Source: Candidatus Hydrogenedens sp. (GTDB lineage: Bacteria > Hydrogenedentota > Hydrogenedentia > Hydrogenedentales > Hydrogenedentaceae). Taken from it: a stretch of 754 bases of DNA. Within the stretch, counting starts at the first letter, position 1, and each line of letters begins with the position of its first letter. The stretch is taken from assembly GCA_049968235.1 (NCBI GenBank), contig JBMFRC010000049.1:1-754 (forward strand), written 5' to 3'. Positions 1 through 754 of the stretch are shown piece by piece. A program made the position numbers and the translations under genes. The notes beneath the pieces are model-generated. The model did not search any database. It was given only the letters and a program-made list of their open reading frames with translations, and had not been told where the DNA came from.

Positions 1-339
1 GAGTCAAAAGAATTTAGAAGGAAAGAGTCTCTGGCCTGGAAGGATTGGAAGAAGAGAGAAGGAAAATTTCTATTAGTTGCAGTTTTTGGGCCTGAAAAGT
101 TCGACAGTTGGACTGTATCATTTGACAGTGGAGAAGCATTGATTAAGAAAAGTATTCCAGAGGAGATAGGCAAGGAGATTATCGAGAAATACAAAGGATT
201 TAACGGTAATCTCTATGTGATAGTCTCTAAGGTTGGTGACACATGGGAGTTGTGGCTAGACGAGGGAAAAGAAATTGGATGGTATTACAACCTTGAAGGG
301 AAGAATTTGGTTAGACGTAAAGAAGACATTCCCTTCTAA
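1..339 (+). CDS. 5'-truncated CDS for a hypothetical Trp-rich protein, about 112 aa visible, with stop TAA at 337-339. Frame 1 is open from base 1: ESKEFRRKESLAWKDWKKREGKFLLVAVFGPEKFDSWTVSFDSGEALIKKSIPEEIGKEIIEKYKGFNGNLYVIVSKVGDTWELWLDEGKEIGWYYNLEGKNLVRRKEDIPF*. The alternative is a complete 66-aa ORF from TTG 139.
   Basis: Frame 1 has no stop from position 1 to 337. The 46 codons upstream of the track's TTG start (139) look protein-like: G-enriched first codon positions, a hydrophobic stretch LLVAVFGP, and the same AGA/AGG/AAG/GAA codon preferences as the downstream part. TTG is a weak start. The GGAG at 130-133 could act as an SD for it, but GGAG recurs often in this purine-rich sequence. 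A second in-frame TAA follows at 343-345. I do not recognise the product. Confidence 0.6.
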   Translation, partial: ESKEFRRKESLAWKDWKKREGKFLLVAVFGPEKFDSWTVSFDSGEALIKKSIPEEIGKEIIEKYKGFNGNLYVIVSKVGDTWELWLDEGKEIGWYYNLEGKNLVRRKEDIPF

Positions 340-343
340 CAGT

Positions 344-384
344 AATCCCAAGGGGTTTAATCCCCTTGGGGTTATTCTTTTTGT
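344..384 (+). terminator. Intrinsic, rho-independent-like terminator. Stem CCCAAGGGG (347-355), loop TTTAAT (356-361), stem CCCCTTGGG (362-370), extendable by A344-U373, A345-U372 and U346-G371. Then a T-rich tract GTTATTCTTTTTGT (371-384).
   Basis: Seen directly in the sequence: a perfect 9-bp inverted repeat with 7 G:C pairs and a 6-nt loop, beginning 8 nt after the gene A stop codon and followed immediately by a U-rich run (TTTTT at 378-382). It sits in the only non-coding gap in the window. In archaea the T-tract alone could also terminate transcription. Confidence 0.7.
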
Positions 385-404
385 CTATTCATCAAAACTA
401 AACA

Positions 405-754
405 ATGAGAGAATTAGTAGAAAAAAAGAAAGAAGAAATAATTCAGAAAGAAATAGAAAAGGGAGTCAAGAGGATTTCTTCAGATAATCCCTATGAAATA
501 GTTAAAAAGTTAGTTCATCAATACAAGATGTTTTCAAAGGTCACTTCAAAATACATTTCAGCTAACAGAAAGTTAAAGATAATTGATCAGAGGGTGCAGA
601 GAGAGATTGTAAGTGATGAAGAAGCGCTAAGACATCTCCTAGAAGATGAATTAAGAGAGAAGTTCAAGAGAAAAAAGCTTGTTTTTTATAAAACAGAATT
701 TGTAGAAGCGAATAATTTATATTTTCCCTACCTGGCACGATTGGGAATACATAG
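405..754 (+). CDS. 3'-truncated CDS for a hypothetical protein, at least 116 aa, continuing past the window end: MRELVEKKKEEIIQKEIEKGVKRISSDNPYEIVKKLVHQYKMFSKVTSKYISANRKLKIIDQRVQREIVSDEEALRHLLEDELREKFKRKKLVFYKTEFVEANNLYFPYLARLGIH...
   Basis: Frame 3 has a TAA at 399-401, then ACA, then ATG at 405-407. After that there is no stop for 116 codons through base 754. By rough estimate this is very unlikely to arise by chance in 35% GC DNA. Codon usage matches gene A (AGA/AGG Arg, AAG/AAA Lys, GAA/GAG Glu) and the sense strand is purine-rich. No SD-like GGAGG lies upstream (aaactaaacaATG), so the start may be leaderless or translationally coupled, or the gene may be expressed by read-through. The ORF track omits it only because it has no in-window stop. 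I do not recognise the product. Confidence 0.8.
   Translation, partial: MRELVEKKKEEIIQKEIEKGVKRISSDNPYEIVKKLVHQYKMFSKVTSKYISANRKLKIIDQRVQREIVSDEEALRHLLEDELREKFKRKKLVFYKTEFVEANNLYFPYLARLGIH

What the first reader, a model, noticed from the sequence alone, without database searches (positions are those of the whole stretch)
405..754. Long open frame missing from the supplied ORF track: gene B runs off the 3' edge
The six-frame track lists only ORFs that have an in-window stop. Frame 3 is open from ATG 405 to base 754. That is 116 sense codons, starting one codon after an in-frame TAA. It is the longest and statistically strongest coding signal in the window. The product has a highly charged N-terminal segment (ELVEKKKEEIIQKEIEK) and then a more aromatic or hydrophobic segment (LVFYKTEFVEANNLYFPYLARLGIH). 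I cannot match it to a known family from memory. It has no Walker A motif and no obvious catalytic motif.
Basis: seen in the sequence. Interest (0 to 1): 0.5.

Follow-up and report, generated by a model that had tools for sequence, protein, structure and literature searches.

The report
Start of a miniature DNA polymerase gene
The open frame is a real gene: it encodes the first third of a rare ~327-residue hot-spring virus protein whose predicted fold is a family B DNA polymerase with no proofreading domain, which would make it one of the smallest polymerases of that type.

Summary
Frame 3 is open from ATG 405 to the contig end, giving 116 codons, and the window is an entire 754-bp MAG contig. 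ORF length alone is weak evidence: 3.5% of simulated sequences reach it. Homology settles the coding question. Five homologous loci give dN/dS of 0.07-0.16.

Invariant residues fit the PolB motifs:
- Motif A: D126.
- Motif B: K180x3N184xxY187G188.
- Motif C: Y239-W-N-I-D243-G.

There is no room for an exonuclease domain. The window holds only the part upstream of these motifs.

The gene lies in a replication module of ~10-kb elements, two of which have inverted terminal repeats. The module also contains an SSB-like gene ending in DIPF (window 1-339) and a conserved terminator just before the polymerase start.

Best reading: an exonuclease-less mini-PolB replicase of a linear phage, probably protein-primed. 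Activity and priming mode are untested.

The parts
405..754 (+). Gene B: the first 116 codons of a ~327-codon gene for a PolB-like mini polymerase, cut off by the contig end. This part covers the N-terminal subdomain: helix 2-18, a small sheet, the conserved helix EALRHLLE at 73-80, and the conserved KKLVFYKTEF..AN.LYFPY..G segment at 90-114. It stops 10 residues before the catalytic Asp of motif A.
   Evidence: Translation. Identical 116-aa database entry. 82% identity to the 327-aa P0025. dN/dS 0.07-0.16. Model and fold matches. E73, Y95, F99, A102, F107, P108 and G114 are invariant in 64/64 sequences.
399..401 (+). In-frame TAA one codon upstream of the ATG. It fixes ATG 405 as the first possible start. 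There is no Shine-Dalgarno-like purine run in 387-404.
   Evidence: The start M-R/K-E-L is conserved in all homologs. Other genes of the element carry GGAGGTG or AGGGGGTG before their ATG.
341..386 (+). Intrinsic-terminator-like hairpin (15-bp stem, 7 G-C pairs, 6-nt loop) followed by CTTTTTGTCT. It lies between gene A and gene B.
   Evidence: A GC-rich hairpin plus T-run sits at the same place in 12 of 13 related loci, and the stem sequences differ between lineages.
1..339 (+). Gene A: the last 112 codons plus stop of a 117-codon gene that runs in from the 5' edge. It encodes an SSB-like small protein ending in ...RRKEDIPF.
   Evidence: P0009 is the identical partial entry. The family alignment has a conserved C-terminal D-I/L-P-F: D114 invariant, P116 and F117 at least 90%. 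The AF2 model has OB-like beta1-beta2-beta3-alpha-beta4-beta5 order, best-model pLDDT 78. dN is 0.13-0.23 with saturated dS.

Best explanation
Window 405-754 is the 5' third of the gene for a miniature family-B-type DNA polymerase ('mini-PolB', about 38 kDa, 327 aa in the closest relatives). The protein consists only of an N-terminal subdomain plus a palm, very short fingers and a small C-terminal region. It has no 3'-5' exonuclease domain and no TPR insertions.

The gene sits in the replication module of a ~10-kb linear double-stranded DNA phage-like element from hot springs. The order is: small DNA-binding-like gene, SSB-like gene A, terminator, polymerase, then an overlapping 146-158-aa gene. 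Related genomes carry inverted terminal repeats and a muramidase-like lysin.

Proposed mechanism:
- D126 (motif A) and D243 (motif C) bind the two catalytic metals.
- K180, N184 and Y187 on the fingers helix hold the incoming dNTP.
- The enzyme copies the linear genome from its ends, most likely from a protein primer, while the gene A product coats the displaced strand.
- The terminator directly upstream and the lack of a ribosome-binding site keep polymerase output well below SSB output.

What is shown: the gene is real and truncated, the family exists, its fold and invariant residues are as stated, and the genomic context and terminal repeats are as stated. What is inferred: catalytic activity, DNA-templated DNA synthesis, protein priming, and the expression logic.
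For: Coding and family:
- Exact and homologous entries.
- dN/dS 0.07-0.16.
- Full-length homologs in conserved synteny.
- 70 clusters at 90% identity, but only about 7 at 50% in 1.84 billion proteins.

Fold:
- AF2 model of P0025: pLDDT 94.7, pTM 0.91.
- All top 50 Foldseek PDB hits are PolBs.
- Named BFVD hits at E<=1e-3 are viral PolBs.

Motifs:
- D126 lies at the end of strand 114-127, followed by a helix.
- K180..G188 lie on helix 180-189.
- D243 lies at the turn of hairpin 237-248.
- These residues are present in 63 of 63 full-length members.
- Kx3N[SA]xYG is matched strictly in 47 of 64 sequences.
- Motif C with the first Asp replaced is known in active piPolB (SxTTDG; only the second carboxylate is needed; PMC5695915).
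- It also occurs as YMNTDG in the exonuclease-less pPolB of Bifidobacterium phage BD811P2.

Context:
- Inverted repeats at the ends of two independently assembled ~10-kb contigs. Their inner boundary falls at the homologous position although the repeat sequences differ.
- Muramidase/endolysin-like gene.
- No other polymerase or replication-initiator hit among the nine other longer ORFs of the 10.2-kb contig that were scanned.
- SSB-like neighbour with a DIPF tail.
- Conserved terminator with no SD.
Against: - No sequence-level membership. No Pfam DNA_pol_B or DNA_pol_B_2 hit at E<=1 in 64 members. hhalign against phi29, PRD1 and a 10-sequence pPolB alignment gives probability below 1%. A PDB profile search finds nothing.
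- The few weak Pfam hits are to RVT_1 (7 of 64 members, best E 0.005). The invariant R210..L-Q-N-L-D217 loop and helix before motif C resembles RT motif B.
- Motif A (DIxxCFYS) is far from DxxSLYPS, the KxY lysine is not conserved, and the first Asp of motif C is Asn.
- No terminal protein was identified. Inverted repeats were seen in only 2 of 6 long contigs.
- The rest of the protein is inferred from relatives that are 72-82% identical over the N-terminus. This contig itself stops at residue 116.
- I could not inspect the residue-by-residue structural superposition.
Confidence: 0.7

Rival explanations
1. The protein is a palm-domain polymerase of the reverse-transcriptase-like class, either RNA-templated or template-independent, rather than a PolB-type DNA-dependent DNA polymerase.
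For: - Weak RVT_1 matches cover the motif A to C region: L008 homolog residues 118-263, E 0.005, and 7 of 64 members.
- DIxxCFYSI fits the RT motif A pattern.
- The invariant G/T-x-L-Q-N-L-D-L...I-A-S-x-L-H loop and helix directly before the motif C hairpin resembles RT motif B.
Against: - PolB structures score nearly twice as high, and they cover 200-248 residues against about 135 for RTs.
- There is no YxDD box; the sequence is N-I-D-G.
- A perfect PolB-type Kx3N[SA]xYG sits on the fingers helix.
- All RVT_1 scores are far below the gathering threshold (17 against 29.6 bits).
- The context is a linear DNA element with terminal repeats and no template-RNA candidate next to the gene.
Confidence: 0.1
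2. The protein is a PolB-fold polymerase that starts chains by itself, as primer-independent piPolB does, or uses host primers. The terminal repeats would then serve another purpose.
For: - Motif C has the first Asp replaced and is followed by Gly, as in piPolB SxTTDG.
- The canonical KxY lysine is not conserved.
- No terminal-protein gene is recognisable.
- The spacing leaves no room for TPR1: motif A to B is 54 residues against 134 in phi29.
Against: - Inverted terminal repeats on ~10-kb linear contigs are the usual signature of protein-primed replication (the signature is stated in PMC9246712).
- piPolBs are large and keep their exonuclease and TPR domains.
- No KTRG-like motif was noted in the family consensus.
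Confidence: 0.12
3. The protein is a catalytically dead PolB-like scaffold, like herpesvirus UL8 or the inactive PolB modules of cellular polymerases, and the host polymerase replicates the element.
For: - The protein is drastically reduced, has non-canonical motifs A and C, and has a minimal thumb.
Against: - Every residue expected for catalysis and dNTP binding (D126, K180, N184, Y187, G188, D243) is invariant across members that are only 30-40% identical overall. Dead paralogs typically lose these residues.
- No other replication protein was found among the element's ORFs that were scanned.
Confidence: 0.07
4. The open frame is a chance ORF in AT-rich, purine-skewed sequence and is not translated.
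For: An open run of this length arises in 3.5% of Markov simulations of the window. There is no Shine-Dalgarno sequence before the ATG.
Against: - Homologs down to about 30% identity keep the frame, the start and the length.
- dN/dS is 0.07-0.16.
- The structure prediction is highly confident.
Confidence: 0.01

Closest known systems
Protein-primed family B DNA polymerases (phi29 gp2, PRD1 P1, Bam35/GIL16 type; Pfam DNA_pol_B_2)
   Same: - Catalytic Asp at the end of the motif A strand, Kx3N[SA]xYG on a fingers helix, and Y-x-x-x-D-G/S at the motif C hairpin.
- Encoded on small linear genomes with inverted terminal repeats, next to an SSB gene.
   Different: - 314-344 aa against 550-750 aa.
- No exonuclease domain.
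- No room for TPR1 or TPR2: motif A to B is 54 residues against 134.
- First Asp of motif C is Asn, and the KxY lysine is not conserved.
- No detectable sequence-profile similarity.
- No terminal protein recognised.
Exonuclease-less pPolBs of Bifidobacterium phages (e.g. BD811P2, 445 aa) and of the virophage mavirus
   Same: - They are precedents for protein-primed-type PolBs that lack the exonuclease domain (PMC11071308).
- BD811P2 has motif C YMNTDG, the same N-x-D-G variant as YWNIDG here.
   Different: - Those proteins are still recognisable by BLAST to phi29 (30% identity over residues 179-497) and are at least 100 aa longer.
- The present family is not detectable by sequence.
- Its hosts and habitat are thermophilic.
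Primer-independent PolB (piPolB) of pipolins
   Same: Motif C has the first Asp replaced and is followed by Gly (SxTTDG). The enzyme is experimentally active, which shows that only the second Asp is needed (PMC5695915).
   Different: piPolBs keep an active exonuclease, TPR1 and TPR2, and a KTRG motif. They are much larger and sit in integrated elements rather than ~10-kb linear genomes.
BFVD entry A0A3Q8HYZ4 (unnamed viral protein, 315 aa)
   Same: It is by far the best structural match among predicted viral proteins: Foldseek E 8.9e-14, TM 0.58/0.60, aligned over the whole length, and of the same size. It is probably a member of the same superfamily of mini polymerases.
   Different: Only 17% identical. 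I could not find its virus or annotation with the tools at hand.
Bacterial SSB (for the neighbouring gene A, window 1-339)
   Same: The predicted strand and helix order matches an OB fold. The conserved C-terminal D-I-P-F resembles the SSB-Ct hexapeptide DDDIPF, which recruits partner proteins (PMC5872125).
   Different: - 117 aa, with no long disordered linker.
- No Pfam SSB hit.
- Only one acidic residue is strictly conserved before IPF.
- The fold was not confirmed by a structure search.

Membership tests
Family B DNA polymerase (PolB) superfamily | Polymerase-domain fold (palm, fingers, thumb) closest to solved PolB structures | tested here: met
   [not shown]
Family B DNA polymerase (PolB) superfamily | Motif A (DxxSLYPS) with a catalytic Asp at the end of a palm strand | tested here: inconclusive
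   K-x-D126-I-x-x-C-F-Y-S-I-Y-S: the Asp is invariant (63/63), lies at the end of strand 114-127 and is followed by a helix. An aromatic residue sits at the steric-gate position. The SLYPS consensus itself is not kept, and the pattern fits RT motif A equally well.
Family B DNA polymerase (PolB) superfamily | Motif B (Kx3NSxYG) on a fingers helix | tested here: met
   In K180-x-L-R-N184-[ASTI]-V-Y187-G188, the residues K, N, Y and G are invariant in 63/63. The strict pattern Kx3N[SA]xYG is present in 47/64. The motif lies on helix 180-189 between motifs A and C. Compare the pPolB alignment.
Family B DNA polymerase (PolB) superfamily | Motif C (YxDTDS) at a beta-hairpin turn, with the metal-binding second Asp | tested here: met
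   Y239-W-N241-I-D243-G244 is invariant in 63/63 and lies at the turn between strands 237-241 and 244-248. The first Asp is Asn. The same kind of variant occurs in active piPolB (TTDG) and in phage BD811P2 (NTDG).
Family B DNA polymerase (PolB) superfamily | N-terminal 3'-5' exonuclease domain (ExoI, ExoII, ExoIII) | tested here: not met
   The whole protein is 314-344 aa and motif A starts at residue 124. The roughly 120 residues before it form a helix, a small sheet and a helix, with no conserved DxE or other acidic triad.
Family B DNA polymerase (PolB) superfamily | Recognition by curated sequence models or profile comparison (Pfam DNA_pol_B, DNA_pol_B_2) | tested here: not met
   No such Pfam hit at E<=1 in any of 64 members. 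hhalign against phi29, PRD1 and a 10-sequence pPolB alignment gives probability 0.2-0.3%. A PDB profile search returns only noise.
Protein-primed PolB (pPolB) subgroup | TPR1 and TPR2 insertions | tested here: not met
   Motif A to motif B is 54 residues (134 in phi29, which includes TPR1). Motif B to motif C is 63 residues and is occupied by two strands and the long palm helix.
Protein-primed PolB (pPolB) subgroup | Linear genome with inverted terminal repeats | tested here: met
   L008: bases 1-65 are the reverse complement of 10117-10181. L015: the first 55 nt are the reverse complement of the last 55 nt. The boundary falls at the homologous position in both although the repeat sequences differ. 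No repeats were seen in L010, L011, L014 or L016, which may be incomplete. This cannot be tested on the 754-bp window itself.
Protein-primed PolB (pPolB) subgroup | Terminal protein gene and protein covalently linked to the 5' ends | not testable with these tools
   No neighbour matches a known terminal protein. The overlapping 146-158-aa downstream gene and the polymerase's own N-terminal subdomain are only candidates.
Reverse transcriptase (Pfam RVT_1) | Score above the Pfam gathering threshold, and a YxDD motif C | tested here: not met
   [not shown]
Bacterial-type SSB (neighbouring gene A) | OB fold plus a C-terminal acidic-IPF tip | tested here: inconclusive
   The C-terminal D-I/L-P-F is conserved. 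The predicted beta1-beta2-beta3-alpha-beta4-beta5 order fits, but only one of five models was confident (pLDDT 78). There is no Pfam SSB hit, and no fold search was left to run.

The most novel reading that the evidence does not exclude
The family is an active, thermostable, roughly 38-kDa replicase that represents a separate, deep lineage of family B polymerases pared down to the catalytic core. It keeps a PolB-type fingers motif together with an RT-like loop and helix before motif C. Working only with a small SSB and perhaps its own N-terminal subdomain (the part encoded in this window) or the small downstream protein as primer, it would replicate a 10-kb linear phage genome. That would make it the smallest known replicative PolB and a possible model for the ancestral palm polymerase core.
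Probability: 0.4. Interest if true: 0.85.

Novelty: new variant of a known kind. Interest (0 to 1): 0.68.

Why it matters
- If the protein is active, it is about 40% smaller than the smallest well-studied protein-primed PolBs and has no proofreading domain. Yet it would be the only polymerase candidate on a 10-kb phage genome from hot springs. That bears on how small a replicative DNA polymerase can be, and on how PolB relates to the RT-like palm polymerases.
- A tiny, presumably thermostable polymerase with a partner SSB is of practical interest for amplification methods.
- The contigs define a group of small linear phage-like genomes in which almost every gene lacks a known family.
- Pieces of these genomes are currently filed in MAGs of at least eight unrelated bacterial and archaeal lineages, so they are a source of binning error.
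- For the scan itself, the result shows that an unannotatable ORF fragment on a 754-bp contig can be resolved by finding its full-length relatives through the neighbouring gene.

Tried and rejected
- Direct family searches on the 116-aa fragment (Pfam, PHROGs) gave nothing significant.
- blastn of the window against the phage and plasmid collections gave no match.
- The first protein search with the fragment returned only three truncated entries.
- The search for related loci with the fragment alignments found nothing in viral, genome or metagenome contigs. The automatically chosen peptide patterns were low-complexity or too strict.
- The route that worked was to search with the upstream gene A and read its contigs.
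- Sequence-level links to PolB all failed: a PDB profile search, hhalign against phi29 and PRD1 polymerases, and hhalign against a 10-member pPolB alignment I built.
- The afdb50 fold library was unavailable.
- I could not identify the best BFVD hit, A0A3Q8HYZ4. It occurs in no paper, and tblastn of three family members against phage genomes found nothing real. The two weak gut-phage hits were unrelated ORFs.
- Weak Pfam hits to Cmr1_like_C (13 of 64 members) and DUF3644 (8 of 64) are all below threshold. I take them as noise or generic RRM-like palm similarity.
- Rfam found no family for the terminator region or for the hairpin-rich spacer in related loci.
- Literature searches found no description of a ~320-aa PolB or of these hot-spring elements. 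The library is incomplete, so this is not proof of absence.

Full report
**1. The observation**

The window is 754 bases. In frame 3 a TAA lies at 399-401, followed by ACA and then ATG at 405. The ORF-listing tool skips this frame because it has no in-window stop.

Length alone is not strong evidence. In 5000 Markov simulations of the window, 3.5% contained an open run of at least 116 codons. A second frame, frame 1 from base 1 to 339, is open for 112 codons and is also a gene.

Comparison shows that the frame is coding. The public protein collection holds exactly this 116-aa product from a contig of exactly 754 bp, so the window is a whole MAG contig labelled Candidatus Hydrogenedens. Against five homologous loci, substitutions pile up at third codon positions and dN/dS is 0.07-0.16.

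**2. Finding the rest of the gene**

Searches with the fragment returned only two other truncated copies, from MAGs labelled Caldimicrobium and Caldisericum. They show the same gene order as the window. Pattern-based scans of viral, genome and metagenome contigs found nothing.

Searching with the upstream gene (gene A) gave twelve clusters on somewhat longer contigs. On those contigs the gene downstream of gene A is complete. It is 327 aa in the closest relatives (L003, L007, L009) and 323 aa in L004 and L005. The window fragment is 82% identical to the first 116 residues of the 327-aa P0025.

Family size was estimated in two ways:
- An exhaustive HMMER scan of 1.84 billion cluster representatives found only about seven true representatives at the 50% level.
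- A profile search of the 90% clusters found 70 entries, nearly all 314-344 aa and none with a Pfam domain.

The family is therefore real, compact in length and rare.

**3. What the protein is**

The family alignment has four blocks that are invariant in all 63 full-length members:
- K-x-D126-I-x-x-C-F-Y-S-I-Y-S
- K180-x-L-R-N184-x-V-Y187-G188-L-T-R
- R210-x-x-L-Q-N-L-D217-L
- Y239-W-N-I-D243-G-G

An AlphaFold2 model of P0025, built on 64 family sequences, is very confident (pLDDT 94.7, pTM 0.91). Fold searches gave these results:
- Foldseek against the PDB: the first 50 hits are all PolBs.
- Foldseek against predicted viral structures: the named hits are viral PolBs.

The secondary structure places the invariant residues where a PolB active site needs them:
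- D126 ends a strand and is followed by a helix, as in motif A.
- K180 to G188 lie on a short helix and fit Kx3N[SA]xYG, as in motif B.
- D243 sits at the turn of a beta-hairpin, as in motif C.

Motif C reads Y-W-N-I-D-G instead of Y-x-D-T-D-S. Loss of the first Asp is compatible with activity. piPolB has SxTTDG and is an active polymerase, and its authors conclude that only the second carboxylate is needed (PMC5695915). In my own alignment of phage pPolBs, the exonuclease-less polymerase of Bifidobacterium phage BD811P2 reads YMNTDG.

The protein has no room for an exonuclease domain, because motif A starts at residue 124. It has no room for the TPR1 insertion of protein-primed PolBs either: motif A to B is 54 residues, against 134 in phi29.

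**4. Limits of that assignment**

No sequence method links the family to PolB:
- There is no DNA_pol_B or DNA_pol_B_2 hit at E<=1 in any member.
- hhalign against phi29, PRD1 or my ten-sequence pPolB alignment gives probabilities below 1%.
- A PDB profile search gives only noise.

The only faint Pfam signal is RVT_1 over the motif A to C region, seen in 7 of 64 members and far below threshold. The invariant L-Q-N-L-D loop and helix before motif C looks like RT motif B. I therefore keep an RT-like reading as a rival at about 0.1. I file the protein as working like, and structurally belonging with, PolB polymerase domains, while failing two membership features: the exonuclease domain and sequence-profile recognition. 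I could not view residue-level superpositions, so the motif equivalences rest on pattern, spacing and secondary structure.

**5. What the window itself contains**

Only residues 1-116 are encoded here. This is the N-terminal subdomain: helix 2-18, a small sheet, the conserved helix EALRHLLE, and the conserved segment KKLVFYKTEF..AN.LYFPY..G. Within it, E73, Y95, F99, A102, F107, P108 and G114 are invariant in 64 of 64 sequences. The contig ends 10 residues before D126.

I could not establish what this subdomain does. It may correspond to the N-terminal domain or palm extension of PolBs, or it may have a role in priming.

**6. Surroundings in the window**

*Gene A (bases 1-339).* This is the last 112 of 117 codons of a conserved small protein. 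Its family ends in D-I/L-P-F across members as low as 27% identical. That resembles the bacterial SSB C-terminal tip DDDIPF, which recruits partner proteins (PMC5872125). The best AlphaFold model (pLDDT 78; the other four models were poor) has the beta1-beta2-beta3-alpha-beta4-beta5 order of an OB fold. Pfam SSB does not match. I read gene A as an SSB-like protein, with moderate confidence.

*The intergenic hairpin (341-376).* Between the two genes lies a 15-bp GC-rich hairpin followed by a T-run. A comparable hairpin plus T-run sits at the same place in 12 of 13 related loci, with unrelated stem sequences in different lineages. None of those loci has a Shine-Dalgarno sequence before the polymerase ATG, although other genes of the element have strong ones. 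I infer that an abundant SSB transcript mostly terminates here, and that the polymerase is made at a low level from read-through.

**7. The element**

The longest contigs carrying the family cluster at 9.4-10.5 kb. Six of them were read. They carry 15-19 genes, almost none with a known family. The genes include:
- a 766-843-aa protein;
- a muramidase/endolysin-like protein (Pfam PF11860 weak; PHROG endolysin E 2e-7);
- in one genome, a BclA_C-domain protein.

Two contigs from different samples and assemblers end in inverted repeats. In L008, bases 1-65 pair with 10117-10181. In L015, the first 55 nt pair with the last 55 nt. The repeat sequences differ between the two genomes, yet the inner boundary falls at the homologous position. 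This argues for genuine terminal inverted repeats on a linear genome, which is the usual signature of protein-primed replication (as stated in PMC9246712). Four other long contigs show no such repeats and may be incomplete.

Several features point to a bacterial host:
- sigma-70-like promoters;
- intrinsic terminators;
- Shine-Dalgarno sites;
- the lysin;
- the SSB-type tail.

The labels on the carrying MAGs span Hydrogenedens, Caldimicrobium, Caldisericum, Brevinematia, Conexivisphaera, Caldisphaera, Nitrososphaeria and Aenigmatarchaeota. Identical proteins occur in different bins. These labels are best explained by mis-binning of a phage.

**8. Comparison with what is known, and novelty**

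The closest known systems are the protein-primed PolBs of phi29-like and PRD1-like phages. The rare exonuclease-less versions (Bifidobacterium phages; mavirus, PMC11071308) are precedents. piPolB is the precedent for the motif C variant.

The present family differs in three ways. It is about 320 aa, it lacks the exonuclease and TPR elements, and it is undetectable by sequence. The best match among predicted viral structures is an unnamed 315-aa protein, A0A3Q8HYZ4 (E 9e-14, TM 0.6). At least one deposited virus therefore seems to encode something similar, but I could not identify it.

Five literature searches found no description of such a polymerase or of these elements. The library searched is incomplete. 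I rate the family as a new variant of a known kind.

**9. Verdict**

- The gene is the 5' third of a mini-PolB-like polymerase gene in the replication module of a small linear hot-spring phage (confidence about 0.7).
- Catalytic activity, template preference and priming mode are inferred, not shown.
- Interest is 0.68. A specialist in polymerases or virus evolution would find a 38-kDa exonuclease-less PolB-fold replicase surprising, and it can be tested directly in vitro.

Noticed in passing
window 1-339 (gene A); family alignment A7: The upstream gene ends in a conserved D-I/L-P-F, like the bacterial SSB C-terminal tip DDDIPF. Its best AlphaFold model has OB-fold strand order. It is probably a phage SSB that recruits host or phage partners through this tail, which also argues for a bacterial host.
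   Followed up: partly
window 341-404; same position in L001-L004, L007-L009, L011, L014-L016: A GC-rich hairpin plus T-run lies directly upstream of the polymerase start in 12 of 13 loci. The stem sequences are unrelated between lineages, so the structure is conserved but the sequence is not. No Shine-Dalgarno sequence precedes the ATG, unlike the other genes of the element. Only L010 lacks the hairpin.
   Followed up: yes
L001:660-940, L002:~600-880, L003:~712-1000: A roughly 280-nt spacer between the 110-aa and 66-aa genes is packed with short GC hairpins with UUCG- or UUAC-type loops, and there are apparent compensatory changes between L001 and L002. The spacer is absent in L009 and replaced by a 165-aa ORF in L007. 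No Rfam family matches. It could be a structured RNA or an inserted repeat element.
   Followed up: partly
L008:1-65 and 10117-10181; L015:1-55 and 9623-9677: Perfect inverted repeats lie at the ends of two ~10-kb contigs from different assemblers. The inner boundary is at the homologous position although the repeat sequences differ. In L008 the right arm continues 45 nt further out, so the true repeat may be at least 110 nt.
   Followed up: yes
MAG labels of P0001-P0005, P0025, P0029, P0043, P0072, P0076: Near-identical or identical pieces of this element are filed in MAGs of at least eight unrelated lineages, including archaea (Caldisphaera, Conexivisphaera, Nitrososphaeria, Aenigmatarchaeota). 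This is almost certainly mis-binning of a phage.
   Followed up: partly
window 3' end; L001 and L002 3' ends; L007 and L009: All three closest NCBI contigs break inside the polymerase gene, at residues 116, 132 and 74. One JGI sample (3300039096) holds two variants, L007 and L009. Co-occurring strains about 80% identical probably fragment the assembly here.
   Followed up: no
BFVD entry A0A3Q8HYZ4: An unnamed 315-aa viral protein matches the model over its whole length (E 8.9e-14, TM about 0.6, 17% identity). Its virus could not be identified with the tools. It may mark a second, already deposited lineage of mini polymerases.
   Followed up: partly
L025 (Bifidobacterium phage BD811P2, OP172659.1:3387-4724): The annotated DNA polymerase is only 445 aa and aligns to phi29 residues 179-497, so it has no exonuclease part. 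Its motif C is YMNTDG, the same N-x-D-G variant as in the family studied here.
   Followed up: partly
L008:7568-8137(-), L010:8926-9477(-), L014:7209-7775(-), L015:6535-7104(-), L015:7877-8578(-): The elements carry a muramidase/endolysin-like gene (PF11860 weak; PHROG endolysin E 2e-7). L015 also carries a BclA_C (C1q-like) domain protein, a plausible receptor-binding fibre. No packaging ATPase or recognisable capsid protein was found among the ORFs scanned.
   Followed up: partly
L010:7714-7875: Three tandem copies of a 54-nt unit (89-93% identical) lie inside the 199-aa minus-strand gene.
   Followed up: no
L003:2594-3046, L004:1471-1947, L008:6733-7173: A 146-158-aa gene overlaps the 3' end of the polymerase gene by about 20 nt in nearly all genomes, which suggests translational coupling. 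It has no known family. It is a candidate terminal protein or processivity partner.
   Followed up: no
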